Made by a program: the position numbers and the translations under genes. A stretch of DNA of 64,000 nt. Source: Nematostella vectensis. Lineage: Eukaryota. Of the stretch, positions 48,607 to 60,900 are shown piece after piece; positions within the stretch are counted from its first letter, which is position 1; each line of letters starts with the position of its first letter. The notes beneath the pieces were generated by a model. That model saw only the letters and a program-made list of their open reading frames with translations. It ran no database searches and was not told the origin of the DNA. Location of the stretch: positions 6,257,459 to 6,321,458 of the forward strand of contig NC_064039.1 of NCBI RefSeq assembly GCF_932526225.1, written 5' to 3'.

Positions 48607-48647
48607 ACGCCGACCGGCTAGAAGGCGGGTATCGCGTGTTGGATTGA

Positions 48648-48663: not shown

Positions 48664-49011
48664 ATGACCGGTTTGATAGAAATGGAGAACCAAACGGTGA
48701 AAGACTCGAAAGTATCCCCCGTAAAGCGAACAACGGATTATAAGTGTCTTCATGGCAGAGTGAAATATTATTGCAAAGATTGTCACGGATCGCAAATCTG
48801 CCCTCACAACCGGAGAAAAACGCGGTGCAGAGAATGTAACGGCGGTAGCATTTGTGAGCACAGACGAGCAAGATATGTCTGTAAAGACTGCAAGGGGAAA
48901 GGGATGTGTGAACACAGCAAACAGAGACCCTTTTGTAAGTTATGCGGAGGGTCTCAAATATGCGAACACGATAGACAAAAGCACCATTGCAGAACGTGTA
49001 ACGGAAATTAA
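48664..49011 (+). CDS. Element ORF: tandem Cys/His zinc-ribbon repeat protein (putative nucleic-acid binding)
   Basis: 115 aa with four tandem units of C-x-H-x(4-6)-C-x2-C-x-G-x3: CLHGRVKYYCKDCHGSQI / CPHNRRKTRCRECNGGSI / CEHRRARYVCKDCKGKGM / CEHSKQRPFCKLCGGSQI / CEHDRQKHHCRTCNG. It shares the N-terminal MTGLIEMEN and the promoter with the PolB gene. The functional start may be the second ATG at 48682. Confidence 0.6.
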   Translation: MTGLIEMENQTVKDSKVSPVKRTTDYKCLHGRVKYYCKDCHGSQICPHNRRKTRCRECNGGSICEHRRARYVCKDCKGKGMCEHSKQRPFCKLCGGSQICEHDRQKHHCRTCNGN

Positions 49012-49026
49012 CATTGACCCACTCAG

Positions 49027-49053
49027 TTTTGTAACGCGTCTCACGTTACAAAA
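49027..49053. terminator. Perfect 10-bp stem hairpin at the convergence point of the plus and minus gene blocks
   Basis: TTTTGTAACG-cgtctca-CGTTACAAAA, 16 nt after the stop codon of the zinc-ribbon gene. A role in 3' end formation is speculative. Confidence 0.3.
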
Positions 49054-49208
49054 CACATACATTCCTAATCACCCTAACAACTAGCGATTCTGAAAATAGG
49101 TTTTGTATTTACATTGAGAGTTCGCGGTCGCCAGGGTGGTCTGGTATGCACGTGAACAGGTATTGTCTTCTTGCGGTACGTCACATCCGTCCACATGCAC
49201 CCCGCATG

Positions 49209-50735
49209 TTACCGGAATAGATACCAAGCTAAACCAGCCGTAAAGGCTGTGATCGTGACAAGGTTATTTTCGTGCTGCGTGTTCGTGGGTTTAATCACGT
49301 CCGGCTTTGGGTTAGTTTTCGCCTCCGGTTCCGGTTTGTGAGCCGTGACTGACTCGGTATGAGGTAACACAATCTTTGAATGACCCATATTATGTTTAGG
49401 GATCGTTTTTATCTCGTTATTTATCGGATTCAGCCCCAGTTTCATATCAGTGGTGGCTTTTTGTAACTTGTTATTATAGCCAGCGATCGAAGTGTTGTTA
49501 TTTATCACAAGATACGATGGACTTAACCAACAGCCGAGGGCGAAAGCTAGGTCTAGTTTTTGTCTCGCCTGTTGTAAAGCAAACTGATACCGTTGTATAC
49601 TTTTCGATATACTGTTTTCCACCACCGCGCTTTCGAAGAGTTTCGTGAAGACCTGTTTCGTTTCCTGAGCTGAACCGCTATCGCCGACGATTGACGACCG
49701 GGTCTGAACTTGCGCGCCTAGAATACAGTAGACAAAGGCTTCGATGCTCTGGTTTATCCTAGACAACCCAGCTTTGGTTAACCCCATTGATTTTTCCGGA
49801 AAGAACCACTCATACTGAAACCCAGTTCTAAGGTCTTTCAGGTACTCGATCTCAAAGTGATTCATGTGTTCGTGGTCGCTTTTGGCAGCGTCCCATTCGT
49901 CGTGTAATTGATCAATGGTGCCATAAGGCTTATACTTGTCGTTAGAAGATGACAAGCCGTGATAATCATAATTATAAACGTTCCCTAACCCGTGATTTAT
50001 CGGTCTGAGGAACCGGAAATCGTCACCAGTTCGGAATTCTGTTCTTAGTTTTTGGTAAGCCGCTTCGCTGTAAAAGTTTTTATTCCAACTAAAGAGCCTA
50101 TCTTTTGGAAGAGGGCATTGTAGCTCGTTTAATATTCGTCTGATAGTGAAAATGATGTGAAATCTGTAGAATGACCCCACTTGAGAGTCGTCAATCATGT
50201 CACGCGTCACACCACATCCAGCAGTCGCGCAAAACATAGCAAAATTTAAGGCTTGACTCCAATAACTGAGGTTTGGGGCGTCGAGCCACCTACTAGCCTC
50301 CTTTGCTGTTCTGAATACTAGCAAGCTGTCGGTGAATATGTCCCTAAAAACAAAGTGTGTCTTCACCTTTGGTGTTATAAAAACATTAAAAGAGACGTAA
50401 TTATTTCTCGTAGGGTTTTCGTCCCACGGCAATATCTTGTACTCTGCACGCGCGTCTAGTCTGTATTGTTTTGGGAACCCAAACAGTTGCTGGATCGTTT
50501 CCTTGTATGCTTGTGTGTCGTCGGCGACTAGAAAATCCTGGATATTCTCGGGTTTCCAGCTATTACCAGGGAAGTGATATAACGTTTTGACTAGATTCCC
50601 ATTCTTGTCGAATGGATCGTATTCGTCCCCATTGAAAACGAATTGCACATTGCCGTGCCCGTCGGCAGAGAACCTGAAGCGTGAGTAGTAGGGGTACCTT
50701 TTCACAAATTCTGTAAACTTCATCTTATATGACAT
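49209..50735 (-). CDS. Element ORF: 508-aa protein of unknown function with a C-terminal transmembrane anchor
   Basis: Long uninterrupted ATG ORF in the minus-strand gene block. The box GATTTAAAAAC lies upstream at 50743..50755. The C-terminus NLVTITAFTAGLAWYLFR is hydrophobic. I recognise no family motif. Confidence 0.6.
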   Translation of the reverse strand: MSYKMKFTEFVKRYPYYSRFRFSADGHGNVQFVFNGDEYDPFDKNGNLVKTLYHFPGNSWKPENIQDFLVADDTQAYKETIQQLFGFPKQYRLDARAEYKILPWDENPTRNNYVSFNVFITPKVKTHFVFRDIFTDSLLVFRTAKEASRWLDAPNLSYWSQALNFAMFCATAGCGVTRDMIDDSQVGSFYRFHIIFTIRRILNELQCPLPKDRLFSWNKNFYSEAAYQKLRTEFRTGDDFRFLRPINHGLGNVYNYDYHGLSSSNDKYKPYGTIDQLHDEWDAAKSDHEHMNHFEIEYLKDLRTGFQYEWFFPEKSMGLTKAGLSRINQSIEAFVYCILGAQVQTRSSIVGDSGSAQETKQVFTKLFESAVVENSISKSIQRYQFALQQARQKLDLAFALGCWLSPSYLVINNNTSIAGYNNKLQKATTDMKLGLNPINNEIKTIPKHNMGHSKIVLPHTESVTAHKPEPEAKTNPKPDVIKPTNTQHENNLVTITAFTAGLAWYLFR

Positions 50736-50742
50736 ATAAGAT

Positions 50743-50755
50743 GTTTTTAAATCAG
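50743..50755 (-). promoter_or_regulatory. Variant box CTGATTTAAAAAC (ORF 49209..50735)
   Basis: It lies 9 nt before the first ATG at 50735 and ~21 nt before the second ATG (MSYKM). Confidence 0.4.
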
Positions 50756-50813
50756 TCCTTTACGCATCTCAATTCATAGATCCATCCGACGGGAGTTCTC
50801 TCGTACAGAAATT

Positions 50814-51419
50814 TCACCGAGCGGGTCGACTCGCCAGGTCTTTCAAAATCTCTTCTCTTACTGTTTCCCTCAGCTTGGTAATGTTTACGTTTTTTTCGTC
50901 CTCTCTTACCGACTTTTGACGGATCTGGAGCTTTAGAGCCTCAAACTTGTCCACCTCGTTCAAGATTAAAGAGAACTCTTCGTCTGATATTTTGTTGTCT
51001 TTTAAAGCTTTAGAGACCAGGTCGCGTATGCTATTTACTTTTGCCTTTGCCATCGCCGCTGTTTGGTCGTGCTTGGAGACTTTTTGCGACAGCCGTTTAG
51101 AAACCGCCGCACAGCCTACAGACGTAAGACCGAAAACACCGGCCAAAGCACCCAACGGAACTCCGACGACGATACCAAAACCTGACAGAGAAGTCCCCAA
51201 ACCACTAGACCCAAGAATGACGGATAAGAGTCCTAAGACCACACTTAACTTTGAAAACACGCTCTGCCCTCGTTTATACTTTTTCCTCACGTTCTCGTAA
51301 TGTTTAACTTCTTGCTCCAAACTTCCCAAAACATCGTGGGTCTTTTGGAGTCTGAAGTTATCACCCGAGGGGCTGACCCCTCGGGGTACGTTCGGGTAGA
51401 TTGAGTTGTACTCTTCCAT
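50814..51419 (-). CDS. Element ORF: two-pass glycine-zipper membrane protein with a C-terminal coiled coil (201 aa)
   Basis: Central segment LSVVLGLLSVILGSSGLGTSLSGFGIVVGVPLGALAGVFGLTSVGCAAV, followed by a charged helical tail. The box CACTTAAAGAA lies upstream at 51442..51455. Confidence 0.6.
   Translation of the reverse strand: MEEYNSIYPNVPRGVSPSGDNFRLQKTHDVLGSLEQEVKHYENVRKKYKRGQSVFSKLSVVLGLLSVILGSSGLGTSLSGFGIVVGVPLGALAGVFGLTSVGCAAVSKRLSQKVSKHDQTAAMAKAKVNSIRDLVSKALKDNKISDEEFSLILNEVDKFEALKLQIRQKSVREDEKNVNITKLRETVREEILKDLASRPAR
51366..51384 (-). other. Related palindrome CCGAGGGGTCAGCCCCTCG inside ORF 50814..51419
   Basis: It shares the GAGGGG-N-CCCCTC arms with the other copies and encodes PRGVSPS. 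Confidence 0.4.
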
Positions 51420-51441
51420 AGCTTTATTATGGGGAGAATTT

Positions 51442-51455
51442 ATTCTTTAAGTGAT
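51442..51455 (-). promoter_or_regulatory. Variant box ATCACTTAAAGAAT (ORF 50814..51419)
   Basis: It lies ~25 nt before the ATG at 51419 and overlaps the stop codon of the penton candidate. Confidence 0.45.
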
Positions 51456-52070
51456 TTCTAAAATTAGACGTATCGGGTAGAGACCGCGCTCTATTGTGTT
51501 TCCGTCACCACCCTTTATACTAAGACGGAGACTACTCACGTAACCGACTGATGTGGTGCTAACCCGTACCGGATCGCTTGGATTGAGGTATATCTTTCCT
51601 TCATCAAGCTCTACACTTGCTAGGATTTGTGAGGGCGCCCCTTGTTGGAGGGAGTCAGACGCGTTCACAAGATCGCAGTGGATAAAAATAGCCTCGTGAC
51701 CTATCATCTTTATCTCGTGGCGAGTGTTTGCTTCCAGCTCCCTGGTCTTGAGTCCTAACAGGCAGGCGAGCGGCTCATTCAACGCGACGTTCCGGTGAAC
51801 TTCGAGTGACGAGTCTCTAATAGAGACTGACTTTTCACCAAGACGCATACCCCCATCTATTTGACGTTTTAGCGTCTCGATCGTATACTGCCCCGCGGGG
51901 ATCCTAAGGATAATGTTCTCACCGTCGGAGACCGTTCCCTCGCTTGAGAGACTGTTACAACGATTATGAAACGCACATCCTCGCAGCGCGATAAACCGCG
52001 GCTTTTCAATAGGTTGTTCTAAATAGACAGTAAAGTCACCAACGTTTCCTTCAATGTAGAGTAATACCAT
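51447..52070 (-). CDS. Element ORF: candidate minor capsid (penton, single jelly-roll) protein, 207 aa
   Basis: The size, beta-rich composition and position within the morphogenesis block fit a Polinton minor capsid protein. The motif AIFIHCDLV..S resembles penton-like proteins I recall from invertebrate Polintons. No structure prediction was possible here. Confidence 0.45.
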   Translation of the reverse strand: MVLLYIEGNVGDFTVYLEQPIEKPRFIALRGCAFHNRCNSLSSEGTVSDGENIILRIPAGQYTIETLKRQIDGGMRLGEKSVSIRDSSLEVHRNVALNEPLACLLGLKTRELEANTRHEIKMIGHEAIFIHCDLVNASDSLQQGAPSQILASVELDEGKIYLNPSDPVRVSTTSVGYVSSLRLSIKGGDGNTIERGLYPIRLILEIT

Positions 52071-52073
52071 TTG

Positions 52074-53096
52074 TTATGATTTCCGTCTCCTTTTAAATCG
52101 TTCTACGGAATACAGGACGACAGCGACGATGAGAAGCCATGCGTTTTTAGCTAAAAAGCCAACAACTTCACCTGCCGTTCTAAATATGAAACTAGCTATA
52201 GCACCAACCATTCCTGGGAGTATTTCTCCTAATTTTTTGCCTATTGTTTTCAGACCATTTCCAACACCTTTTGCAACACTAGTCAGCCCAGCTTTCAGAT
52301 TAGAGACAATAACACCGATAACAACGCCCACAGCGGTAACGACAGCAGCGACTGTAAATCCGTATTTCTTAAAAATCGCTTTGACACGATCTTTCAACGA
52401 CATTCTCTCTTCAAGATTTTCTCTCTCCAATTGATTCTCTTCCAAAGTCTCATCTATGACAGAATTTCTTTCGCTGAGCTCTTCATTTTTACGATCTATA
52501 GCTCTTAGTCTTTCTTGGTTAGTTGTTTCACTTCGTTCCTCATTATTTTTTCTCATTTGCTCGGTGTTTCTCTCTTCTTCTTCTCTGAGTGTATTACCTG
52601 TAGCGTCTAGTTCATCGAGTTGAATCTGAATTTGCTTGTACTTTCCGGATCTGATTTTGTCGTCAACACTCTTCCGCACCGTTCTATCCTCATTATACAA
52701 CCTTTCTGGTCTAGTCCAACCACCTTTTCTCGCAGAATAGAAGGAAATGAATTGTTTTCCTCTCTCATCCGTTGAAATCTGAACTAGATTTTCATCAAGA
52801 TCTGGATATTTCGATAACAAAAGGTCTACCCTAAGTGTGTCCGTTGAAGGAGAACCTCCCATATTCTGTAACTCCATGTACTCGGGGACAGCCCTCCCGG
52901 GGTTTCGTGTTTTCCATAAGTCAGTCAACCTCCTACTCACATAGCTTGCACCTCTACCAAATCTGTTTGAAATCCTTTCATTCCATGATTCTCTTCCCTC
53001 ACCATCGTTTGGAATAAGAGAGTCATAATCTTCGTCTACAGTAGTATTCAAATCTTCTCTACCTTCTTCTGTTGTGGGATCAAAATCTATATCCAT
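52074..53096 (-). CDS. Element ORF: coiled-coil protein with C-terminal multi-helix glycine-rich membrane domain (340 aa)
   Basis: A central E/R/N-rich heptad-like region (LREEEERNTEQMRKNNEERSETTNQERLRAIDRKNEELSERN) is followed by FTVAAVVTAVGVVIGVIV, ILPGMVGAIASFIF and AWLLIVAVVLY. The box GACTTAAAGATT lies upstream at 53121..53133. Confidence 0.6.
   Translation of the reverse strand: MDIDFDPTTEEGREDLNTTVDEDYDSLIPNDGEGRESWNERISNRFGRGASYVSRRLTDLWKTRNPGRAVPEYMELQNMGGSPSTDTLRVDLLLSKYPDLDENLVQISTDERGKQFISFYSARKGGWTRPERLYNEDRTVRKSVDDKIRSGKYKQIQIQLDELDATGNTLREEEERNTEQMRKNNEERSETTNQERLRAIDRKNEELSERNSVIDETLEENQLERENLEERMSLKDRVKAIFKKYGFTVAAVVTAVGVVIGVIVSNLKAGLTSVAKGVGNGLKTIGKKLGEILPGMVGAIASFIFRTAGEVVGFLAKNAWLLIVAVVLYSVERFKRRRKS
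52089..52100 (-). promoter_or_regulatory. Variant box CGATTTAAAAGG (penton candidate), inside the 3' coding end of the upstream gene
   Basis: It lies ~20-25 nt before the ATG at 52070 and is encoded within ..ERFKRRRKS* of ORF 52074..53096. Confidence 0.4.
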
Positions 53097-53120
53097 TTCT
53101 TATTTTGTTTGAAAATAAGA

Positions 53121-53133
53121 AATCTTTAAGTCG
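53121..53133 (-). promoter_or_regulatory. Late-type box CGACTTAAAGATT (ORF 52074..53096)
   Basis: It lies 34 nt before the ATG at 53096. Confidence 0.5.
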
Positions 53134-53140
53134 TGCCAGC

Positions 53141-53557
53141 TCATATCCACCTACTCGCTACATAGCCAAGGGCTAACATTCCACCTCCAACGTACGCCAT
53201 CTCTCCCATCTTTTGGTTGCTACTTGGTCTGTAGTAATCTGAGAGCTCAGGCTCTTTCAAATCAAAATCTGGATGTGTTTGAGCGTATAGTTTGAAAGCC
53301 TCATCCGTCTCTTTATCGTTCTCATCCGCACGAACTTTATCGTTGTATTGTTCAGTCAACCAATCCTGGTATTCCTGTCTTTTTTTCTGCCAATCACCCA
53401 TTGCTTGTTGATACTTTTCAAGCGCTTTATCGTGTCTTATTTTTTCTTTATCAACATGAGTAGCGTCAGAAGACAAGTATCTCGCTAGGTAACTCCCTCC
53501 GACAAACGCCGTCGCATTAATAAAAGCCCCACCAATCATAAATGCTATACTCGCCAT
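53141..53557 (-). CDS. Element ORF: small membrane protein (138 aa; N- and C-terminal hydrophobic helices)
   Basis: MASIAFMIGGAFINATAFVGGSYLA at the N-terminus and MAYVGGGMLALGYVASRWI at the C-terminus. The box GACTTAAAGATC lies upstream at 53575..53588. Confidence 0.55.
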   Translation of the reverse strand: MASIAFMIGGAFINATAFVGGSYLARYLSSDATHVDKEKIRHDKALEKYQQAMGDWQKKRQEYQDWLTEQYNDKVRADENDKETDEAFKLYAQTHPDFDLKEPELSDYYRPSSNQKMGEMAYVGGGMLALGYVASRWI

Positions 53558-53574
53558 TTATTAATCAATCTATA

Positions 53575-53588
53575 AGATCTTTAAGTCG
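53575..53588 (-). promoter_or_regulatory. Late-type box CGACTTAAAGATCT (ORF 53141..53557)
   Basis: It lies 28 nt before the ATG at 53557. Confidence 0.5.
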
Positions 53589-53589
53589 C

Positions 53590-53814
53590 CTACAGCGGTT
53601 TTGGCAAAATCTTTTGTGTTTCCAGATAATCTTTCAGATACATACTACCGGACAGGACAGCAACCCATTTAGCGTAGTTTGTAACACTTGACGAAGGGTC
53701 GCTGATGAATGACTCTTTCATAGCCTTTTTAGCAACATAACCCACGCCGGCGGCTAATCCGATGATGACTGCTGAGTCGGTGATCGTTTTCACAAGTTTG
53801 TTTTCAGTTGACAT
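53590..53814 (-). CDS. Element ORF: small membrane protein (74 aa)
   Basis: Hydrophobic segments AVIIGLAAGVGYVA and WVAVLSGSMYL. The perfect late-type box GTGATTTAAAGATT lies upstream at 53840..53853. Confidence 0.5.
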   Translation of the reverse strand: MSTENKLVKTITDSAVIIGLAAGVGYVAKKAMKESFISDPSSSVTNYAKWVAVLSGSMYLKDYLETQKILPKPL

Positions 53815-53839
53815 GATTTTATTTATTACAGATTCAGAT

Positions 53840-53853
53840 AATCTTTAAATCAC
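53840..53853 (-). promoter_or_regulatory. Late-type box GTGATTTAAAGATT (ORF 53590..53814)
   Basis: It lies 35 nt before the ATG at 53814. The 14-mer is identical to the one at 54335..54348. Confidence 0.55.
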
Positions 53854-54311
53854 AACATTCCTATTTTTGGCGTCGCGTTCGGGAGGCTAGCCCCTCGAGC
53901 TCCCCCTAGGTGGGAGGTGGGTCTCCCAAGAGTTTCGGCCTCGTTGACGTTAATCTTAGACGGCTCGCCCTCTTTCTTTTTGTAAAAACGCATATACATA
54001 TCCAATGCGGTGAGCCCTATTCCAACTAGAGCCAGTACAGTTGTAAACGATAGCTCTGGAATCCAAGCGTCCGAGAGGCTATCCCCTCGAGCTCCCTCTT
54101 GGTGGGGTGTCTCTGCTCGTGCAGCGTCTTCTGAACTCGCCTCCGCCTCGCGTTTCATCTCCCTAGCAAGTGCTTCTCTACACCTCCTATTATATTCGGC
54201 AACTCTCTTACCAGAAGCGACTTTTATAGGATCTTTCTCCTTAGCGGCACTCTTCTTCCTGGGGGGAGGGTCCTTTGTGATTTGCTCAACCTCTTGATTT
54301 TCGTCAGACAT
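53850..54311 (-). CDS. Element ORF: basic N-terminus plus single-TM protein (153 aa)
   Basis: K/R-rich N-terminus (PPRKKSAAKEKDPIKVASGKRVAEYNRRCREALAREMKRE), then a TM helix LSFTTVLALVGIGLTALDMYM. It contains two in-frame copies of the palindromic motif. The box GTGATTTAAAGATT lies upstream at 54335..54348. Confidence 0.55.
   Translation of the reverse strand: MSDENQEVEQITKDPPPRKKSAAKEKDPIKVASGKRVAEYNRRCREALAREMKREAEASSEDAARAETPHQEGARGDSLSDAWIPELSFTTVLALVGIGLTALDMYMRFYKKKEGEPSKINVNEAETLGRPTSHLGGARGASLPNATPKIGML
53883..53902 (-). other. Palindromic motif copy inside ORF 53850..54311
   Basis: The reverse complement reads GAGCTCGAGGGGCTAGCCTC, encoding GARGASL. It lies ~35 nt upstream of the late box for ORF 53590..53814. 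Confidence 0.6.
54075..54094 (-). other. Palindromic motif copy inside ORF 53850..54311
   Basis: The reverse complement reads GAGCTCGAGGGGATAGCCTC, encoding GARGDSL in the same codon phase as the copy at 53883. Confidence 0.55.
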
Positions 54312-54334
54312 GATTCTTTACTCACTGAATAAAG

Positions 54335-54348
54335 AATCTTTAAATCAC
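54335..54348 (-). promoter_or_regulatory. Late-type box GTGATTTAAAGATT (ORF 53850..54311)
   Basis: It lies 33 nt before the ATG at 54311. Confidence 0.55.
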
Positions 54349-54352
54349 ATCA

Positions 54353-54488
54353 TGCTCAAGAGCTTGCTCAGTTGTGCTCAAGAGCTTGCTCAGGTGTGCT
54401 CAAGAGCTTGCTTAGGTGTGCTCAGGTGTGCTCAAGAGTTTGCTTAGGTGTGCTCAGGTGTGCTCAAGAGTTTGCTCAGTTGTGCTTG
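54353..54488. repeat. Intra-element 22-bp minisatellite (GTGCTCAAGAGCTTGCTCAGGT, with 10-bp short variants), ~6 copies
   Basis: It lies in the spacer between ORF 53850..54311 and ORF 54454..54981 and extends into the last ~10 codons of the latter. Confidence 0.8.
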
Positions 54489-54981
54489 AAACTTCTTGAA
54501 GTTTGTTGGAAGTCTCCTGTGAAGGTGTTAGTTTAACATGCTTAGCGACCCGAAAGATGGCACTAGCAAGTGCTACCATCCTTCCTCCCTTCAATACCAA
54601 GAGACCTGCAAAGTTTGACAATTCGCGTTTAACCAACTCGTCGTTCTGTAAGTCTTTGCTAAGCGCTTCGGTGTCATCTACAGGAACCACGTAGGAAATG
54701 ACTTGAGACACCACTTGAAGTGCTGATTCTACTAATCCATCAGTAACTTGTTTGCCTAAGACAGTCTGGTAGCGAACAAAGTACTTTTCGACGTCTTTCG
54801 CCGGGAGCTTCTTGATGTCCCCTAAACTCATGTCCACACCAAGAAATTCCTTCGTAGTCCCAAGAGATGCGAGAATAGCCAGCGATTCTCGTTTGACTTC
54901 AACATCGTCTTCGAGAGGCTCACCCTTCGAGCTCCCCTTAGACTTAGGCTCCTCTTCCATATAATCCTCAATGCTTGCCAT
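54454..54981 (-). CDS. Element ORF: 175-aa acidic/helical protein, function unknown
   Basis: The ORF track starts at 55047. However, the early-type box AAGTGGTTTAAAAAC (55006..55020) lies inside that extension, 33 nt before the ATG at 54981 (MASIEDYMEEE..). I therefore take 54981 as the start. The protein contains no Cys, so it is not a cysteine protease. Confidence 0.55.
   Translation of the reverse strand: MASIEDYMEEEPKSKGSSKGEPLEDDVEVKRESLAILASLGTTKEFLGVDMSLGDIKKLPAKDVEKYFVRYQTVLGKQVTDGLVESALQVVSQVISYVVPVDDTEALSKDLQNDELVKRELSNFAGLLVLKGGRMVALASAIFRVAKHVKLTPSQETSNKLQEVSSTTEQTLEHT
54915..54934 (-). other. Palindromic motif copy inside ORF 54454..54981
   Basis: The reverse complement reads GAGCTCGAAGGGTGAGCCTC, encoding SSKGEPL in the same codon phase. 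Confidence 0.5.
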
Positions 54982-55005
54982 CTTATTTTGTAAGTAGACC
55001 AAGAT

Positions 55006-55020
55006 GTTTTTAAACCACTT
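55006..55020 (-). promoter_or_regulatory. Early-type box AAGTGGTTTAAAAAC (ORF 54454..54981)
   Basis: It lies 33 nt before the ATG at 54981 and directly follows a palindromic-motif copy. Confidence 0.5.
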
Positions 55021-55021
55021 C

Positions 55022-55043
55022 GAGGGGTCAGCCCCTCGAGCTC
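55022..55043 (-). other. Palindromic motif copy abutting the early box of ORF 54454..54981
   Basis: The reverse complement reads GAGCTCGAGGGGCTGACCCCTC, immediately followed by GAAGTGGTTTAAAAAC. Confidence 0.55.
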
Positions 55044-55670
55044 TCACCGCGTGGCAGGAATCTCCAAATAACGTTGGAATGGATGTCGTAGGCAGAAACA
55101 GAGTCTGGAATACTTTTCAGTTTTCAGCAGTTCTACAAACTTTTTACGAGTCTCAACGTCTAAGTCACCCCCATAATCTTCAAACAGTGTTTTGGTACCG
55201 ATTTGAGATGGATTATGGAATGTAACCACACAGGCGACGTTATCACGGAAGGGCTTTGCTATGGATGTTAATTGTTGCGTCAATACCCACACTGATAATC
55301 CTTCGTGTCTCCCTGAGAACGCTAAATTGATAAACTTGTTCGAGCGTTGCTTTAGATCTTTCGATACAGCACAGTCATCCAAAACGAGTAACGTATTTGT
55401 ACCAGAAAATAGCACCGCACAATCTGTTAGTAACTCGTTAATCTCATCGGTGTTACTAGCATCCGGCGATAATACCAAGAAACGTTTATCTCCGTGAGCA
55501 AATCTACGATAGGACTTGTTTTTCGCATAAGTCGGACAAATCAACACAATGTATTCAAACACATGCCGGAACGGCCCTCGGAGCTGTTCCGTGAGGTACT
55601 TTGTCTTCCCACAATTAGTAGGTCCTGTGATAATACAATGAAAAGGAACTTTTTCCCGTAATTCTTCCAT
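55044..55670 (-). CDS. FtsK/HerA-type DNA-packaging ATPase
   Basis: Walker A is IITGPTNCGKT and Walker B is LLVLDDCA. The size (~208 aa) and position next to the capsid gene are typical of Polinton and PRD1-adenovirus-lineage packaging ATPases. The ORF-track start at 55691 is a TTG; the first ATG is at 55670 (MEELREK), ~25 nt downstream of the box TATTAAAAAGGAC. Confidence 0.85.
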   Translation of the reverse strand: MEELREKVPFHCIITGPTNCGKTKYLTEQLRGPFRHVFEYIVLICPTYAKNKSYRRFAHGDKRFLVLSPDASNTDEINELLTDCAVLFSGTNTLLVLDDCAVSKDLKQRSNKFINLAFSGRHEGLSVWVLTQQLTSIAKPFRDNVACVVTFHNPSQIGTKTLFEDYGGDLDVETRKKFVELLKTEKYSRLCFCLRHPFQRYLEIPATR

Positions 55671-55691
55671 TCTTTTTGTATTATCACACAA

Positions 55692-55705
55692 GTCCTTTTT
55701 AATAC
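55692..55705 (-). promoter_or_regulatory. Variant box GTATTAAAAAGGAC (ATPase gene), overlapping the MCP stop codon
   Basis: It lies ~25 nt before the ATG at 55670. The MCP TAA stop codon is embedded in the box. Confidence 0.45.
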
Positions 55706-56937
55706 ATGATTGCTCTCAAATTCGAGTTCATAACCTCCATCAACGCGTCGGCTACTACAAACATGTAGCAGGTGATGTTTCCCGTTCCTCCAACTTTTCG
55801 TTTCATCTCGAGTTTTACTCCGTCTCGCGTGTTGTTCAAGACCAGACCTCCTCCGTGAATGCTGTTATCTGGGTGTGCCCTCAAGTCGACCCACAGAGCA
55901 AACTTGTTATTAGCGTAAAAATCCTTTTGCTTGACACCCTCTCTACCGAAACGTTTCTTTACCGACTCCCAGAGGTCCGGCGGTGTCATCCCCTTGGAGT
56001 AGAGACGGTTTGGCATGCCATCCACATTAATGTTGATCGATGTGATGCTTGGATTGACAAACTTTTCGGAATCCCTTGCTCCTCCGGTGTAGCTCTCTGT
56101 GAACAGGCACAATATCCCTGTCATTGACCTCCTCGGCAGATTAATGTGCTCGTTTATGACACCATCATTAGGTTTGGAGATGGTGAACGTTTTGTGGAGA
56201 ATGACGTTCTCGTAAAAGAATCCTCTACCAACCTGATAAGCCGACAACGCCTCACGAGCTAAGTATTCACTTGAGATGCAAGCATATTCCAACTCGAGGT
56301 TTGTGATTGTGTACGTTGGAGTCTTGACCGTGTCAGCATAAACAACGACGTCGGAAACTGGGGCTAGAGTAATTTCAAAGATTAGCGGATGAGGTAACGC
56401 CTTTGGATAAAAGACCCCATGCTCGCCGAGAATAGGATGGTCGAGTGGAATGCAGTACTTGGTGTTGTGAACTGCTGCAAGAGCTACTTCCTTAGCATCT
56501 GATGTCGCTTTGTCACCTGCATTTGTCCTGAGCTTCCTCATGTTCTCAGAGGAGATACCTTGTTTTATTCTATCCTCACGATCTTCAGCTTGTAAGTATA
56601 AGTCGTGATAGGTTTGGAAGAGATCGTATCTTTGAGTATCCTGTAGTGTTTCTCCACCGAAAAGAATCTTGAGCCTTGACACTAGGTTCCGGCCAACGTT
56701 GTTGACGAGAGTATTATTCGCGTGTCCTGTGACGTTTAAGTCAAATAGTAAGGATACACTACCTGGAACAATCACTACATTTTCAGCAAGTTTTGGAATA
56801 TTTATATAGAGGGTTTCTCCAGGACTTGCCGATGAGGGATTGAATGTAATCCGATTCAGCGACGATTCCGCTTTCAGGCCGAAGGGTTCCCGTGGGATCC
56901 TGTTTGGGTTAATTTTTTCTGATATCGCTTGTGCCAT
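55699..56937 (-). CDS. Candidate major capsid protein (double jelly-roll expected), 412 aa
   Basis: Its position is immediately upstream of the packaging ATPase. It carries a late-type box, and its size and beta-rich composition fit. No other ORF in the element is a better MCP candidate. The fold was not verified. Confidence 0.55.
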   Translation of the reverse strand: MAQAISEKINPNRIPREPFGLKAESSLNRITFNPSSASPGETLYINIPKLAENVVIVPGSVSLLFDLNVTGHANNTLVNNVGRNLVSRLKILFGGETLQDTQRYDLFQTYHDLYLQAEDREDRIKQGISSENMRKLRTNAGDKATSDAKEVALAAVHNTKYCIPLDHPILGEHGVFYPKALPHPLIFEITLAPVSDVVVYADTVKTPTYTITNLELEYACISSEYLAREALSAYQVGRGFFYENVILHKTFTISKPNDGVINEHINLPRRSMTGILCLFTESYTGGARDSEKFVNPSITSININVDGMPNRLYSKGMTPPDLWESVKKRFGREGVKQKDFYANNKFALWVDLRAHPDNSIHGGGLVLNNTRDGVKLEMKRKVGGTGNITCYMFVVADALMEVMNSNLRAIMY

Positions 56938-56961
56938 CTTTTATTTTAAGAAAAGAGAGAT

Positions 56962-56975
56962 AATCTTTAAATGAG
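56962..56975 (-). promoter_or_regulatory. Late-type box CTCATTTAAAGATT (MCP gene), overlapping the integrase start codon
   Basis: It lies 34 nt before the MCP ATG at 56937. The palindromic TTTAAA core sits in the 33-bp divergent MCP/integrase spacer. Confidence 0.55.
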
Positions 56976-57963
56976 TAACGAAAGCAGGTTATCAAAAATA
57001 TACTATTCCACCGATGGATACTGGAAAGGGTATTCAGCTATTTATAAGTTAGCTAGTGTCGCTAAAGTCAGTGAAGCCGAGGCTAAGAGGTGGCTTGAAA
57101 AACAGGCGTTGTGGCAGATCTATCTCCCAGCTCCAAAGTATGTCCCCAGACCGCATTGGACTGTGAATAAACCTAATCAGATTCACCAAGCCGATCTGTT
57201 GTTTATGCCCCACGATAACGTAGGCAGAAAAACCTACCGTTACGCGTTGGTCGTGATTGATATTGCCTCGAGATATAAAGATGCAGAAGCACTGACTACC
57301 AAGGATTCGAGTGGAATTGCTAAAGGGTTTGAAAAGATATACTCCAGAAAACTTAAATGGCCTCATACGGTGATTGTCGATCCGGGGACAGAATTTAGGG
57401 GAGAGGTAACGAAGATTATGAAAAAGAAGGGGGTTACCATCCAGCGAAGCGAAGCTGGGAACCATCGCGCACAGGCTTTTGTCGAACGCGCCAATAGAAC
57501 ACTGGCGGAGAGGTTGTTTTCTTATCAGTATGCTCAAGAAATGATTAGCGATGATCGGTCCAGAGTTTGGGTGAAACGATTGCCAGATGTTTTGAAGACT
57601 CTGAATAGTCAACCCATAAGAATTACTGGCAAAGAGCCTGTAAAATCTATTGGTTTGAAAGAGGTTGATATTGACCCTCCAACGTATAAGCGGCCTGTTG
57701 GACTTGACGAAGTTAGACTACCACCAGGGGTTAGAGTTAGATATCTATTAGCTCCTGGAGAAGAGGAAGGAGGTGAACGCAGACGAGCCACAGACCCCAT
57801 TTGGAGTTTGAAAGTGTTTGATCTATCACGCAGTGTTGTTTCGGTTGGGCAGCCTGTGTTGTACTACCTCTCCGAAGGCGCTCCAAGGAGGTCGTTCGTT
57901 AGGGAAGAACTTCAAGTCGTCCCTGAAGATACTGAGCCACCACCTAATAGCGTTCTGAAATGA
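56971..57963 (+). CDS. Retroviral-type (rve) DDE integrase
   Basis: The catalytic-core pattern is HQADLLFMP..(D), VIVDPGTEFRG (D), AQAFVERANRTLAERL (E), with typical spacing. The C-terminal beta-rich tail (VLYYLSEGAPRRSFVREELQVV) looks chromo/SH3-like. Confidence 0.9.
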   Translation: MSNESRLSKIYYSTDGYWKGYSAIYKLASVAKVSEAEAKRWLEKQALWQIYLPAPKYVPRPHWTVNKPNQIHQADLLFMPHDNVGRKTYRYALVVIDIASRYKDAEALTTKDSSGIAKGFEKIYSRKLKWPHTVIVDPGTEFRGEVTKIMKKKGVTIQRSEAGNHRAQAFVERANRTLAERLFSYQYAQEMISDDRSRVWVKRLPDVLKTLNSQPIRITGKEPVKSIGLKEVDIDPPTYKRPVGLDEVRLPPGVRVRYLLAPGEEEGGERRRATDPIWSLKVFDLSRSVVSVGQPVLYYLSEGAPRRSFVREELQVVPEDTEPPPNSVLK

Positions 57964-60900
57964 CCGTGAGCGAAGGTGTGAATACCATCATCACAGATGA
58001 CCCGTTTATCATCCTCATGAGATAGAGCGACCTTGTTCACCGTTTCAGTGTAAACATCATGCTTATGACTTCTGATGACATTCATAAGTCTCATCTGAGG
58101 TTTCTTACCAAATAAGCAATCCTTGTAGTCATCGAAACCGATGCTCTTCTTGACGACTGCTCTCTTGACGCCCTTGCATTTCTTTTCTTCTTTACCTTCA
58201 TCCATCTTGTACGAGTAAAGTTTGGCCCTCAGTCCTACAAATTCTGTGATTTGCTGGCCCCCAGCCTCATCTTTAAACATTCCGATGACTTTCTTGTTCA
58301 CACCCACCTCAATACCAGATGGGTGACCCTTCGGAAAGTTGCTGGTGTCGAACATGGACCTCACATCCCCGCTGATGTCCTCGTAAAAGTCTTTCGTCTC
58401 GATCTCATACATCAGGCTGTCAGTATCAGTGAATAAGAGCTTTGCATCCTCACCGTACTTAGGCTTGACGAAGTTGTAGTGGAAATCGTACATGAGCGTC
58501 TTACTCAGGTCCAGAATGGACATACCCAAGTAGACAGGCTTGTTGAAGATCAGCTTTGTCTTCTTCATGTGGATGGCGGCTAGATTCTCGCAAAAGATGG
58601 TGCGATGTTGATAGTTCGGCTTTGATATGAGCTTCTTGGCCTGCTTCTCGTCCGTCACCAACCGAATGTCCACCCTGTTCCTAATGTTCTCCATAGTCTT
58701 ACCAAAGACGGAGTTGTTCATTAACTTGAAAAAATCTTTCTCAAAATCGTTTGTCGCCTTGGCTCTCAGATCGGTGTTCAAGTCAATGTAGGGCTCCAGC
58801 CAAGCAGACTCCTCAAAAGTGACACCCCTGTGAATCTTGGTGACTTTTAGCCCAAAACTCACATAAAGTCTCAGAGTCTCATGGTGGATAACGTACTTTG
58901 TCTTGTCGTTAAGGTTGGGGACCAACTTGTCCACATTGCCTAGCCCGATAGATTCCGGGGCTAGTGGGTAATCGTTGTGTAAGTCATGTAGGTGGTGAGG
59001 GTACTCCAAGTCAACCTCCAGAATGCATGGGCGGTCTCTCCAACCTGACAGCTCTTGGTCACCCATCCACCTGAAACCGTGAGTCGGTAAAGGGTTGCTC
59101 ATCGCCCAGCCATACAAATTGTTAGCATCAAGGTAGGTGATATATTTTGTGGGTAGGTCAGGGTCATACTCCTTCATGTAAGGGTTATTTGCCTCCCCAT
59201 GTCTGTTGCTTATCATGGAGACACCCCCACGGATGCCCTTCTCAATCATGAGCAACATGTCATAGTCCGTTAGAAGCTCTAGCCTCACCTTGGTGGTCTT
59301 CAACGCTGCATCCCAAGCCAACCCTGGCGCTGTGTAGTACCAAGCGGGGTCCAGACCGTAATTCTTGAGACAAACGTCCCTAAAGTTCTCGAAAACGTCA
59401 GCTAAAAGCAACACATCCGACTCTAGGTACAGATTGTGGTAATCCCTCATGGTCCCCATCCCAAAGGCCTCCCACACTCTCCGCGCGTGCAGGTGATCCT
59501 CCTCCGATATGTCGGTGTCGTTGAGTTTGGAGTGGAACGCCTCTCTCTGTGGGAGCTGTGTTGCGTCGAGCTTGCTAAAGCCGTCGAACCAGTCGTAAGG
59601 GAAAACACCCTTCCTCAACAACAGCTGAAGCTCCTCCCCCTCATAGTACTCCGCCAGGTTTTTGAAGCACTCCCTTGACATATTACCCACTAGACTGTCG
59701 AGACTGGCCGACATAAACCTGAAACTGTCGATAAATCTGATATCACGTTTAACATCAATCTTGTTGCCCTCCTTGTTCGTGAAACTGTCGACTACAATCT
59801 GTTTTGTGAAAGAAATATACTTTTCCTCGTTATTAGGTATACAGTTTATTTTACCTTCCGATGTACCAAGGTTCTTGATAAATAGATGGCTGTCGTACCC
59901 AGACAGATTGTGAAAGATAACAGGAAAGAACTTTGGAATTTTGTGATCTAAGTTGCATGCGTTGTGAGCAGCACCTCTGTACTTCCCTGTAAGGTGGCAA
60001 TGGTCCAAAACCTTGTCTTCCCCTAATTCACCCTCACAGATGTGGCAGTGAGTGGCGTCGTTATAGGCGATTTTGTCCTTCGGAGTCATTTTCACCTTCT
60101 TAGGGAACCTGAACTTATCATAAATTTTCTTAATGTCTGACTCCAAAGACTCTACGAAAAGCTGTGGGATATCTTCGTCTGGAGATTCAGCTGTGTATCG
60201 TACAAGCTCGGATGGGGATATATCTCCGTCGAAACACTTGATGAGATAGCAGAAACCAGACGGTTTGTGTTTCTGGTATTGCTTAGTGAAGCTTTTACTC
60301 TCATCTGGGGAGCATGTGTCTATATTCTCTGTGAAGCTCTCAAAGTCGGCGTAGACAACAAAGGGGACACGCATTTTTCTGTTGTAGTTTTTGAATTTAA
60401 TGTGGGGTAGATTTCCATCCTTATCTATCTTAGGCATCTCTATTCCAACCGCTTCATGATTGCCGCAGCATTCAGAATGTTTTTCTAATGATTGTTTGCA
60501 CCGAAACGAGTTCAGACATCTACAGCATAAAAAACGAGTATGATGAAACTCATCAATTTGAGTAGATACTAATCTCATCATATTCTTTATCCAGCAGTAA
60601 TGATTCGTCTCATCATCCGAGATGAGAAGTAAGTTGATTGCATTATCTGGATCCTTCTCACTGATTCTCAATGGATATATTTTGGTTTCGTATCCAAACA
60701 CATTAACCGTATACTGGTTCTGTTTCTCGAACTTGTCAATCTGTTTTAGTGAGACGGGGAACTCTATCCCTGACCAGTCGAATTTCTCAGAGCTCTCTAT
60801 CATTTGTTTACTGAACCTTTGAGGATCTTTCTCCCTAGGATACACAGCAGAGGTTACTGCCCACTTGAAACATTCGTGATCATTCTCGTTCTTAACATTG

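What the first reader, a model, noticed from the sequence alone, without database searches (positions are those of the whole stretch)
53883..55043. A 20-22-bp palindromic motif (GAGCTCGAGGGGCTAGCCYCTC) is dispersed through the element, in coding and non-coding positions
Seen in sequence:
- At least seven copies, always co-oriented with the local direction of transcription. They lie at 46653..46674(+), 61882..61902(-), 53883..53902(-), 54075..54094(-), 54915..54934(-), 55022..55043(-), with a related copy at 51366..51384(-).
- They contain nested palindromes (GAGCTC, CTCGAG, GCTAGC, GAGGCTAGCCTC).
- Three copies sit 0-35 nt upstream of promoter boxes (TFIIB-like, PolB, ORF 54454).
- The three copies within ORFs 53850..54311 and 54454..54981 are all in the same codon phase, giving G-A-R-G-(A/D)-S-L or S-K-G-E-P-L.

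Inference, with three alternatives:
- an upstream regulatory or operator site, for example for the zinc-ribbon protein;
- a hairpin-forming RNA or DNA signal;
- a tiny palindromic insertion element that lands in frame, analogous to the in-frame palindromic elements described in Rickettsia.
Basis: partly seen in the sequence, partly recalled or inferred. Interest (0 to 1): 0.6.

Follow-up and report, generated by a model that had tools for sequence, protein, structure and literature searches.

The report
Hairpin mini-insertions in a sea-anemone Polinton
A GC-rich, hairpin-forming sequence of about 30 bases has been copied at least eight times into a few lineages of virus-like transposons (Polintons) of the sea anemone Nematostella, landing just upstream of gene promoters or, in frame, in flexible parts of proteins, so it looks more like a tiny selfish insertion than a conserved control site.

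Summary
The motif is real. Six copies lie within 3 mismatches of the 22-mer (none expected by chance). There is also a core-only hairpin at 51364 and a decayed copy at 46245. All sit inside a 16.6-kb Polinton of Nematostella vectensis, and none in the 47 kb of flanking host DNA. The full unit is about 30 nt: YTARGGGGAGCTCGAGGGGCTAGCCTCTCGA.

Motif-free sister elements show that every copy is a derived insertion or replacement (+6 to +36 nt, no target-site duplication). Coding copies are in frame but use two codon phases and lie in variable linkers or tails. About 330 homologous proteins lack the encoded peptides, apart from P0010 and the truncated tails of P0234/P0343.

Perfect copies also occur, in the opposite orientation, in two other Polinton lineages. 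One is at exactly the same ATPase/promoter junction. Promoter boxes are intact in relatives that lack the motif. Hairpin stability is unremarkable and there is no covariation signal.

Best reading: a short palindromic insertion sequence spread by copy-and-paste into permissive sites. An upstream regulatory role is not excluded. A REP-like look-alike turned up in several bacterial phyla.

The parts
46645..46678 (+). Motif copy in the inner part of the left TIR. It ends 29 nt upstream of the promoter-like box GTGGTTTAAAG (46704) of the TFIIB-like gene.
   Evidence: 0 mismatches to the 22-mer. PWM score 50.9. Part of inverted repeat I5 with 61801-61915.
61877..61910 (-). Mirror copy in the right TIR. 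It ends 29 nt upstream of the promoter-like box (61841-61851) of the polymerase gene.
   Evidence: 3 mismatches. PWM score 45.0. Same TIR-internal sequence as 46645-46678.
46245..46275 (+). Decayed eighth copy (CCTAGGGGGAGC-CTGGGGGCTATTCTGG) at the end of the left-TIR tandem repeats. It lies upstream of a promoter-like GGTCTAAAGAC box and the small ORF 46301-46561.
   Evidence: Seen by reading the sequence and comparing it with the right TIR. PWM score below threshold because of a 1-nt deletion.
55018..55051 (-). Copy inserted between the end of the A32-like ATPase gene and the promoter box of ORF 54454-54981. It is a perfect 8-bp stem, TCGAGGGG-CTGA-CCCCTCGA. The ATPase stop codon TGA abuts it.
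   Evidence: Outgroups L124, L126, L127 and L129 read GATTCCTGC|AGTGATTTAAAA with no insert. The window and L001 carry +34 nt; L003 carries +36 nt in frame. Perfect stem confirmed.
54909..54942 (-). Coding copy in codons 14-24 of ORF 54454-54981, encoding KGSSKGEPLE. Its loop is TGAG rather than CTAG, which avoids an in-frame TAG stop.
   Evidence: 3 mismatches. Shared with L003 (GGSRGEPLE). A +6-nt replacement relative to L124, in a variable linker.
54069..54102 (-). Coding copy in the middle of ORF 53850-54311, encoding EGARGDSLS. It lies in the linker before the transmembrane segment.
   Evidence: 6 nt of the ancestral sequence are replaced by 27 nt (+21) relative to L003. Absent from all 37 aligned homologues.
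53877..53910 (-). Coding copy in the C-terminal tail of ORF 53850-54311, encoding GGARGASLP. It ends 27 nt upstream of the promoter box (53843-53853) of ORF 53590-53814.
   Evidence: +15 nt relative to L003. Shares 40 nt at 88% identity, flanks included, with the 54073 copy (family D5).
51364..51385 (-). Core-only hairpin CCCGAGGGG-TCAG-CCCCTCGGG in codons 12-19 of ORF 50814-51419, encoding PRGVSPSG. It lacks the GAGCTC extension.
   Evidence: +12 nt relative to both L003 and L124. Perfect 9-bp stem. RNA fold -19.9 kcal/mol, z = -3.1.
45749..62383 (.). The carrier: a Polinton/Maverick element of Nematostella vectensis. Genes: TFIIB-like 46734-47660(+); ankyrin 47782-48606(+); A32-like ATPase 55044-55691(-); capsid-like 55699-56937(-); rve integrase 56971-57963(+); family-B polymerase 57912-61838(-).
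   Evidence: TIRs. Pfam hits. Polymerase motifs KLMNNSVFGK, FTDTDS and HNLSGYD. The TFIIB-like protein is identical to XP_048581547.1 of N. vectensis.

Best explanation
The motif is a short (about 30 nt), GC-rich, quasi-palindromic insertion sequence. It has no coding capacity of its own. It has been copied repeatedly into a few lineages of Nematostella Polintons. Copies survive only where extra sequence is tolerated. Those places are the tiny spacers just upstream of promoter boxes and, when the net length change is a multiple of three, variable linkers or tails of small structural proteins.

Shown here:
- Each copy is derived relative to motif-free sister elements.
- Net length changes differ between sites (+6, +12, +15, +21, +34/+36, and -67 in L104).
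- There are no target-site duplications.
- Both orientations occur.
- Some copies carry neighbouring flank sequence with them.
- Old copies decay.

Inferred mechanism: copy-and-paste of a patch by templated repair or template switching. A broken or stalled 3' end primes on an existing copy at a few bases of microhomology (for example CACC), copies through the hairpin and rejoins. This could happen during repair by microhomology-mediated end joining. It could also happen during strand-displacement replication by the element's own polymerase, with the hairpin favouring stalling and re-annealing.

The insertions are probably neutral or selfish. A secondary effect on the adjacent promoters is possible but not required.
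For: 1. Polarity of the events:
   - At the ATPase/promoter junction, four outgroup elements read CCTGC|AGTGATTTAAAA. The window, L001 and L003 carry a 34-36-nt insert there.
   - 54073 is a 6-to-27-nt replacement relative to L003.
   - 51364 is +12 nt relative to both L003 and L124.
   - 53881 is +15 nt.
2. Absence elsewhere:
   - There is no motif in L124, L126 or L127-L132.
   - Among about 330 homologous proteins, only P0010, P0234 and P0343 show motif-derived peptides or tails.
3. Independent acquisitions in other backbones:
   - L190/L195 is 87% identical to motif-free L124. It has a perfect copy at the same ATPase junction, but reversed.
   - L104 is 85% identical to motif-free L126. 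There, 101 nt are replaced by 34 nt carrying a perfect reversed copy.
   - By my own comparison of the sequences read, these two units match at about 35 of 37 nt although they lie at different sites.
4. Copying of patches rather than of a fixed element:
   - 53881 and 54073 share 40 nt at 88% identity, including flanks that are ancestral at the 54073 site.
   - The two L003 copies share CTAAGG...CTCGAAG flanks.
   - 54073 resembles the left-TIR copy and 53881 the right-TIR copy through the CACC flank.
5. The constraint is on the nucleotide sequence, not the protein. Two codon phases are used and there are non-coding copies. The phase that would read the CTAG loop as a stop carries loop variants TGAG/CGAG instead.
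6. Copies decay: the 46245 copy has lost its stem, and 54913 and 61881 have 3 mismatches each.
7. The promoter boxes are intact without the motif in relatives.
8. Enrichment: 8 copies in 16.6 kb against 0 in about 47 kb of host DNA.
Against: - No donor or master copy and no mobilising enzyme was identified.
- The genome-wide distribution could not be examined, so a source outside Polintons cannot be ruled in or out.
- Five of eight events lie just upstream of promoter boxes, and one junction was hit twice independently. Selection for a regulatory function would predict this too.
- The stem and GAGCTC of the 55022 copy are identical between the window and L003 although the backbones differ by about 14%. 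This could reflect constraint.
- The identical sequence in 70-85%-diverged backbones could also mean strong purifying selection rather than recent spread.
- The proposed repair or template-switch mechanism is inference only.
Confidence: 0.55

Rival explanations
1. The motif is a cis-regulatory DNA site: an upstream promoter element, enhancer or operator. A dimeric factor, from the host or the element (for example the TFIIB-like or a zinc-ribbon protein), would bind the palindrome. Elements that acquire it upstream of their TTTAAA-type promoters would gain an advantage. The intragenic copies would be by-products or internal enhancers.
For: - Four of seven promoter-like boxes in the window have a copy ending 3-29 nt upstream, plus the decayed copy at 46245.
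- The ATPase/ORF54454 junction acquired the motif independently in both orientations. A palindromic DNA site would work either way.
- L104 also has its copy directly upstream of a promoter box.
- L003 has a different perfect 12-bp GC-rich palindrome at the equivalent place upstream of its polymerase gene.
- The stems of the 55022 copy are unchanged between the window and L003, while the loop and flanks differ.
- The window element has the most copies and is the only one here with a TFIIB-like gene.
Against: - The same promoter boxes and genes exist without the motif in L124, L126, L127-L132 and, at two sites, in L003.
- Three events are intragenic and away from any box.
- The spacing to the box varies from 3 to 29 nt.
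- In this compact element the only tolerated non-coding sites are promoter-proximal, so the enrichment is expected without any function.
- Most copies share the same asymmetric arm (GAGGGG against CCTCTC) rather than evolving towards a symmetric site.
- Some copies decay.
Confidence: 0.25
2. The motif acts as an RNA hairpin in the sense transcripts. It would be a 3'-end formation or termination signal for tightly packed genes, comparable to the hairpin signals at giant-virus transcript ends, or an element affecting mRNA stability or translation.
For: - All six window copies are co-oriented with transcription (ORF map).
- The shared G.T position gives a G.U pair only in the sense RNA. Sense folds are on average about 2.8 kcal/mol more stable than antisense.
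- 92.6% of stem cells can pair.
- 55022 directly follows the ATPase stop codon, and 53881 is 30 nt before a stop codon.
Against: - Reversed copies in L104, L190 and L195 give an A.C mismatch in the sense RNA.
- Folding z-scores are only -1.9 to +1.1 for the six full copies.
- Covariation is no better than in shuffles (147 of 500 shuffles reach the observed score).
- Positions relative to genes are inconsistent: 5' coding, mid-ORF, 3' tail and upstream of the first genes.
- The motif is absent from most related elements with the same gene layout.
Confidence: 0.08
3. The repeated DNA reflects a protein-level motif (GARGxSL / SKGEPL) that selection maintains in the encoded proteins.
For: Three to four copies lie in ORFs, all of which remain open.
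Against: - The peptides are absent from 37 aligned homologues of ORF 53850-54311. They are also absent from 35 aligned homologues of ORF 54454-54981, except the close N. vectensis relative P0010.
- The same DNA is read in two different frames and also occurs in non-coding positions.
- The DNA is more conserved than the peptides.
Confidence: 0.01

Closest known systems
Rickettsia palindromic elements (RPEs)
   Same: Both are palindromic non-coding repeats. Both insert in frame into unrelated protein-coding genes as well as into intergenic DNA, adding a peptide segment that the protein tolerates (PMC10969869, read).
   Different: - RPEs are about 100-150 bp, bacterial, and form defined families each with a conserved encoded peptide.
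- The motif here is about 30 nt and sits in a eukaryotic virus-like transposon.
- It is read in two frames, has variable boundaries and often replaces a few ancestral bases.
- There is no sequence relationship.
Mobile GC clusters and short palindromic repeats of organelle genomes (yeast mitochondrial GC clusters, Volvox and fungal mitochondrial hairpin repeats). Cited from my own knowledge, not checked here.
   Same: Both are short (30-50 nt), GC-rich hairpin-forming sequences. Both spread within a compact, more AT-rich genome into spacers and occasionally into coding regions, show presence/absence polymorphism between close relatives, and have no encoded mobilising enzyme.
   Different: Those are in organelle genomes and often have characteristic flanking dinucleotides or target sites. 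None is described for Polintons. The mechanism is likewise unresolved.
Bacterial REP/REPIN elements mobilised by RAYT (Y1 HUH) transposases
   Same: Both are imperfect palindromes of 20-40 nt with a conserved asymmetric 5' extension, dispersed in multiple copies. A REP-like family with nearly the same sequence (GGGAGCTCGAGGGG-N4-CCCCTCGA) exists in several bacterial phyla.
   Different: REPs are extragenic and bacterial, and depend on a RAYT gene. No HUH or RAYT-like gene was seen in the element. The Polinton consensus has CCTCTC and a CTAG loop. Whether the sequence similarity means anything is unresolved.
Baculovirus homologous regions (hrs). Cited from my own knowledge.
   Same: Both are roughly 30-bp imperfect palindromes centred on a restriction-site palindrome and dispersed at several places in a large DNA virus genome. 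In baculoviruses they act as enhancers and origins through a dimeric viral factor. This is the model for the regulatory rival.
   Different: hrs are tandem clusters in non-coding DNA, conserved in position among related viruses and functionally required. The motif here occurs as single copies, some within coding sequence, and is absent from most relatives.
Templated insertions from microhomology-mediated (polymerase theta type) end joining or template switching. Cited from my own knowledge.
   Same: Both give deletion-plus-insertion scars of 5-40 nt. The inserted bases copy a nearby sequence in direct or inverted orientation. There are microhomologies at the junctions and no target-site duplication.
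   Different: Such scars are normally one-off and copy arbitrary local sequence. Here the same sequence is inserted again and again, and in different element lineages. That calls for a special property of the hairpin or an abundant donor.

Membership tests
Polinton/Maverick (the carrier element) | Long terminal inverted repeats | tested here: met
   Arms at about 45749-46754 and 61801-62383, 83-97% complementary, built of 23/36-nt tandem units.
Polinton/Maverick (the carrier element) | [quoted passage not shown] | tested here: met
   - rve integrase: PF00665, E = 1e-7.
- The 1308-aa ORF carries polymerase motifs KLMNNSVFGK, FTDTDS and HNLSGYD.
- It gave no Pfam DNA_pol_B_2 hit and no PDB sequence hit, so the polymerase assignment rests on motifs only.
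Polinton/Maverick (the carrier element) | Virion module: jelly-roll capsid protein and A32/FtsK-type packaging ATPase | tested here: met
   Pox_A32 hit at E = 4e-11. The 412-aa ORF gives only a weak Capsid_N hit (E = 0.004, below Pfam's cut-off). Both genes are conserved in order in 9 related elements.
MITE-like transposable element | Defined ends and constant length with terminal inverted repeats | tested here: not met
   Net length change differs at each site: +6, +12, +15, +21, +34/36, and -67 in L104. The left and right limits differ between copies.
MITE-like transposable element | Target-site duplication flanking each insertion | tested here: not met
   No duplicated bases at any junction when compared with empty sites. 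Several insertions replace 6-17 ancestral bases.
Rickettsia palindromic elements | Element of about 100-150 bp with a conserved reading frame and peptide, in Rickettsia genomes | tested here: not met
   The unit is about 30 nt, is read in two frames and sits in a eukaryotic host. The resemblance is in behaviour only (RPE description: PMC10969869).
REP/REPIN (RAYT-dependent) | Extragenic position and an associated Y1 HUH transposase gene | tested here: not met
   Four copies lie in coding sequence. No HUH or Y1 transposase domain was found among the element's ORFs. The host genome was not searched.
Known RNA families (Rfam 15) | A match to a curated covariance model at the motif | tested here: not met
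   No family matched at any motif copy, either at the gathering threshold over the window or at E up to 10 over 53700-55200. The bacterial look-alikes gave no match either.
Conserved structured hairpin (RNA or DNA) under selection | Compensatory base changes that preserve the stem | tested here: inconclusive
   92.6% of 108 stem cells pair. Only 1 pair has a change on both sides. The covariation score of 0.189 is reached by 147 of 500 shuffles. The copies are too few and too similar to decide.
Virus enhancer or origin palindromes (baculovirus hr type) | Positional conservation among related genomes and binding by a viral factor | tested here: not met
   Positional conservation fails: most related elements lack the motif at the same sites. 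Binding cannot be tested with these tools.

The most novel reading that the evidence does not exclude
The motif would be a roughly 30-nt mobile hairpin that parasitises Polintons, a hyperparasite of a virus-like transposon. An enzyme would move it in trans by recognising the hairpin together with its 5' GGGAGCTC extension, using the same logic as REP/RAYT or IS200-type systems. On this reading, its near-identity to a REP-like family found in Rhodobacterales, Myxococcota, Bacteroidales and Actinomycetota would not be coincidence. GGGAGCTCGAGGGG-N4-CCCCTCGA has 57 exact genomic hits where fewer than 1 is expected. The similarity would reflect either a shared recognition or structural principle or a cross-kingdom transfer. 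One possible structure is a purine fold-back triplex, since GGGGAG-CTC-GAGGGG is a perfect mirror repeat followed by its complement.
Probability: 0.08. Interest if true: 0.85.

Novelty: new variant of a known kind. Interest (0 to 1): 0.5.

Why it matters
Polintons (Mavericks) are virus-like elements with tightly packed genes, and little is known about how their genomes change at small scale. This case shows a short hairpin sequence entering the same element family again and again. It reshapes gene ends: it created a new stop codon or a 12-codon tail on the packaging ATPase. It adds peptide segments to small structural proteins and pushes promoters apart from upstream genes.

If the sequence is a selfish insertion, it extends the phenomenon known from Rickettsia and from organelle genomes to a eukaryotic virus-like transposon. 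It also gives a convenient marker of recent activity and of exchange between co-resident Polinton lineages in Nematostella. If it is instead a regulatory site, it would be the first candidate upstream control element for Polinton promoters, and one that can be tested together with the element's own TFIIB-like gene.

Tried and rejected
- **Public scans with the motif.** An exact 18-mer scan of viral contigs found nothing. A degenerate scan of viral contigs found four unrelated GC-rich contigs. It returned one Polinton fragment (L104) and otherwise bacterial contigs.
- **Related loci from the capsid protein.** The viral-contig scan found none.
- **Other N. vectensis copies of this family.** Exact-protein look-ups for window ORFs mostly failed. 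The chromosome-level assembly is not indexed by position, so the many genomic copies of this family (33 near-identical TFIIB-like proteins) could not be examined.
- **Rfam.** No family matches the motif or the bacterial look-alike.
- **General palindrome enrichment.** Rejected. Perfect stems of 7 bp or more occur at 0.78 per kb inside the element and 0.74 per kb outside. Only the motif copies are GC-rich.
- **Hairpin stability as evidence.** Weak.
- **Covariation.** Uninformative.
- **Fold-back triplex idea** (mirror repeat GGGGAG-CTC-GAGGGG plus CCCCTC). There is no covariation between the third strand and the stem in variant copies 54913 and 61881, and no tool tests it. It is kept only as a speculation.
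- **ORF context of the bacterial look-alikes.** A naive ORF analysis was uninformative in high-GC DNA.
- **Literature.** Searches for the sequence and for Polinton + Nematostella + palindrome found nothing relevant.
- **Vector or polylinker artefact.** Considered because of the stacked AvrII, SacI, XhoI and NheI sites. Rejected because diverged copies occur in six independent data sets.
Full report
**1. The observation**

The 22-mer GAGCTCGAGGGGCTAGCCYCTC has six matches at 3 mismatches or fewer: 46653(+), 53881(-), 54073(-), 54913(-), 55022(-) and 61881(-). None was found in 100 dinucleotide-preserving shuffles.

I built a position weight matrix from nine copies and scanned the whole window. 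It recovers the same six at 42-55 bits, and 51363-51396 at 17.8 bits. Nothing else exceeds the best shuffle score of 11.8.

Comparing the two TIRs revealed an eighth, decayed copy at 46245-46275.

**2. The carrier and the host**

All copies lie in a 16.6-kb element bounded by inverted repeats at about 45749-46754 and 61801-62383. Its genes are:
- an rve integrase, an A32-like ATPase, a weak Capsid_N protein, a TFIIB-like protein and an ankyrin protein;
- a 1308-aa protein with family-B polymerase motifs (KLMNNSVFGK, FTDTDS, HNLSGYD). This protein gave no Pfam polymerase hit and no PDB hit.

This is a Polinton/Maverick. The TFIIB-like protein is identical to XP_048581547.1 and XP_048584879.1 of Nematostella vectensis. 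It belongs to a cluster of 33 near-identical proteins, nearly all named as N. vectensis and lying on several chromosome-sized contigs. So the host is N. vectensis and this family is multi-copy. An Rfam hit to mir-9460 inside the integrase gene was also found.

The remaining 47 kb of the window has few long ORFs and no motif copy.

**3.

- 46653 and 61881 are the same TIR-internal sequence (I5), so they represent one event.
- The coding copies are not all in one phase. 54073 and 53881 encode ARG[DA]SL. 54913 is shifted by one base and encodes GSSKGEPL.
- The 51364 copy is only the core hairpin, a perfect 9-bp stem. Its loop (TCAG in the sense strand) is the reverse complement of the 55022 loop (CTGA).
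- Seven genes in the element have a GTGRTTTAAAR box 20-30 nt upstream of the ATG. Four of these have a motif copy ending 3-29 nt upstream.

**4. Related elements**

Homologue searches with the two motif-bearing ORFs and the ATPase gave 1483, 88 and 913 relatives, mostly on large unnamed ENA assembly contigs. I fetched DNA for these related elements:

| Locus | Source | Relationship |
|---|---|---|
| L003 | N. vectensis, older assembly | about 86% identical to the window |
| L001, L002 | JGI metagenome, Logan | 98-99.6% identical to the window |
| L124, L126, L127-L132 | ENA, Logan, TARA | more distant |
| L104 | WGS contig | 85% identical to L126 |
| L190, L195 | Logan, JGI | 87% identical to L124 |

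**5. Every copy is derived**

- *ATPase end (55022).* L124, L126, L127 and L129 read ...GATTCCTGC|AGTGATTTAAAA, so the ATPase stop codon lies inside the next promoter box. The window and L001 have 34 extra nt there, which bring a new TGA stop. L003 has 36 extra nt read in frame, giving the tail PKESSRGEPLEAVI.
- *54913.* This copy is shared with L003. It is a +6-nt replacement relative to L124, within a linker whose length varies among homologues.
- *54073.* Six ancestral bases (TCAAAG in L003) are replaced by 27 nt. The outgroups have no motif.
- *53881.* This copy is +15 nt relative to L003. It shares 40 nt at 88% identity with the 54073 copy, including flanks that are ancestral at the 54073 site.
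- *51364.* This copy is +12 nt relative to both L003 and L124.
- *Protein level.* None of 37 aligned homologues of ORF 53850-54311 has GARGxSL. Among about 330 retrieved proteins, only P0010 (N. vectensis) carries a motif peptide, and only P0234 and P0343 carry a motif-derived tail.
- *Distant elements.* The more distant elements have no motif and no GC-rich palindromes. They do keep the promoter boxes.

**6. Independent acquisitions in either orientation**

L190 and L195 carry a perfect copy at exactly the ATPase/promoter junction, but reversed: CCTGCA-TCGAGAGGCTAGCCCCTCGAGCTCCCCTAATTTTTTC-AGTGATTTAAAAG. This truncates the ATPase to ...ASRG*.

In L104, 101 nt of the tail of the ORF 53850 homologue are replaced by 34 nt containing a perfect reversed copy, directly upstream of the next promoter box.

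By my own comparison of the sequences read, the L104 and L190 units match at about 35 of 37 nt although they lie at different sites in backbones of different lineages.

In total there are at least eight events in at least three backbones. The sister elements of each backbone lack the motif.

**7. Structure**

The core can form a 7-9-bp stem. 92.6% of stem cells pair across 12 copies. Only one pair changes on both sides, and the covariation score is reached by 147 of 500 shuffles.

Sense-RNA folds are -11 to -20 kcal/mol, with z-scores of -1.9 to +1.1 for the six full copies. Antisense folds are weaker because the shared G.T position becomes A.C. Palindromes in general are not enriched in the element. 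No Rfam family matches.

**8. Interpretation**

Several features point to patches of an existing copy being pasted into new sites, by templated repair or template switching, rather than to a transposon with fixed ends:
- derived presence/absence;
- variable extents and replacement of a few ancestral bases;
- no target-site duplications;
- both orientations;
- flank sequence carried along with some copies;
- decay of old copies;
- use of two reading frames.

One detail fits selection merely keeping ORFs open. The frame in which the CTAG loop would read as a stop is used only by copies whose loop is TGAG or CGAG.

Survival only in spacers upstream of promoter boxes and in variable linkers or tails is what tolerance alone predicts in such a compact element.

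A regulatory role remains the main rival. It rests on promoter proximity, the double hit at one junction, unchanged stems between the window and L003, and a different perfect palindrome at the equivalent place in L003. I put it at about 0.25 and the insertion reading at 0.55. The mechanism itself is inferred, not shown.

**9. Comparison with known systems**

In behaviour the closest analogues are Rickettsia palindromic elements (in-frame insertions; PMC10969869) and the mobile GC-rich hairpins of organelle genomes (my own knowledge). In form the motif resembles bacterial REP sequences. For the regulatory rival, the closest analogue is the baculovirus hr palindrome.

It fails the defining tests for a MITE (fixed ends, target-site duplication), for RPEs (size, conserved frame) and for REPs (extragenic position, RAYT gene).

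I found no description of such a motif in Polintons.

**10. The bacterial look-alike**

The metagenome scan returned many bacterial contigs sharing an extended form, GGG-GAGCTC-GAGGGG-N4-CCCCTC-GA.

A scan of one genome per prokaryotic species found 57 exact matches to this pattern of 22 specified bases, where I estimate fewer than 1 by chance. They occur in Rhodobacterales, Myxococcota, rumen Bacteroidales, Sphaerisporangium and Nitriliruptoraceae. They are often next to terminator-like hairpins, and in the Ruegeria loci apparently just past the end of a convergent gene (my reading of the flanks). They are sometimes in tandem or in several copies per locus. No Rfam family matches.

The 55022 copy differs from the Rhodobacterales form at 2 of 26 positions. 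Because my search was seeded with the Polinton sequence, I cannot show that this similarity is more than convergence of GC-rich hairpins.

Noticed in passing
Loci L133-L189 (prokaryotic genomes) and L010-L121 (metagenome contigs); compare window 55018-55051: A REP-like motif, GGGAGCTCGAGGGG-N4-CCCCTCGA, occurs in unrelated bacterial phyla: Rhodobacterales, Myxococcota, rumen Bacteroidales, Sphaerisporangium and Nitriliruptoraceae. There are 57 exact hits where I estimate fewer than 1 by chance. It is often next to terminator-like hairpins, sometimes in tandem, and matches no Rfam family. It is nearly identical to the Polinton motif (2 differences in 26 nt against the 55022 copy). GGGGAG-CTC-GAGGGG is a perfect mirror repeat followed by its complement, so a fold-back triplex is geometrically possible.
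   Followed up: partly
window 57195-57262 (+): A strong Rfam match to the mir-9460 microRNA precursor family (102.9 bits, E = 6e-24) lies inside the Polinton integrase gene (56971-57963). This suggests the annotated miRNA is a small-RNA-producing hairpin of the transposon itself.
   Followed up: no
window 46734-47660 (+), 47782-48606 (+), 46301-46561 (+): The TFIIB-like gene, the ankyrin-repeat gene and a small ORF (86 aa, hydrophobic C-terminal stretch) in the left arm are absent from all related elements fetched. The TFIIB-like protein has 33 near-identical copies, those with names annotated as ordinary N. vectensis genes, so these annotations are probably Polinton cargo.
   Followed up: partly
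window 54343-54488: A tandem array of 10/12/22-nt units (TGCTCAAGAGCTTGCTCAGGTG-like) lies between the stop codon of ORF 54454-54981 and the promoter box of ORF 53850-54311. It looks like an expansion of the sequence encoding the C-terminal ..TEQTLEHT repeat of that ORF.
   Followed up: no
window 45875-46235 and 61897-62234: The TIRs are built largely of alternating 23- and 36-nt tandem units (ACCTGTCAATCACTTTGTCA with or without CGTGAYRGCCAMGCCC). These could be binding sites for the integrase or a terminal protein.
   Followed up: no
L003 3103-3128: The related N. vectensis element has a different perfect 12-bp GC-rich palindrome (CACCACTCCCCC-TG-GGGGGAGTGGTG) upstream of its polymerase gene, at the place where the window has the TIR-inner motif copy. 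It shares the CACC and GGGGGAG words with the motif's left flank.
   Followed up: partly
L003 11721-14098 compared with window 59574-57200: L003 is rearranged. A second polymerase/integrase segment is inserted between the small-protein genes and the rest of the virion module, so that copy is probably nested or recombined.
   Followed up: no
L127 130-4269 and L128 2-4081: In the TARA/Logan relatives the polymerase gene is only 25% identical to the window's over 350 aa, lies on the opposite strand and gives a clear DNA_pol_B_2 hit. The virion genes, by contrast, are 90-97% identical. The replication module has apparently been exchanged between lineages.
   Followed up: no
L104 (whole contig, 1199 nt): The motif insertion plus the 101-nt deletion removes the stop codon of the ORF 53850 homologue. 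The ORF then runs in frame into the next gene (…SLKIFSMHNKIMSTENK…). This gives either a fusion protein or a decaying copy.
   Followed up: partly
window 57912-61838 (-), residues 587-630: The polymerase carries an Endonuclease VII / HNH-like zinc-finger segment (HCHICE...DHCHLTGKYRGAAHNACN) just before the Exo II-like motif. It also has an N-terminal SAP/Rho_N domain.
   Followed up: no
window 62498-62978 and 44779-45732: Repeats lie immediately outside the element. On the right there are three 161-nt tandem units. On the left there is a duplication with a period of about 547 nt (families D7, D8, D11, D13).
   Followed up: no
window 7888-7921 / 12329-12372 and 9269-9302 / 13694-13727: The host DNA contains a repeated element present twice about 4.4 kb apart. 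It includes CCAAGGGGTGGCCTAGGGGGACCCCCCC, which weakly resembles the motif's left flank (CCTAGGGGGA). This is probably an unrelated transposon.
   Followed up: no
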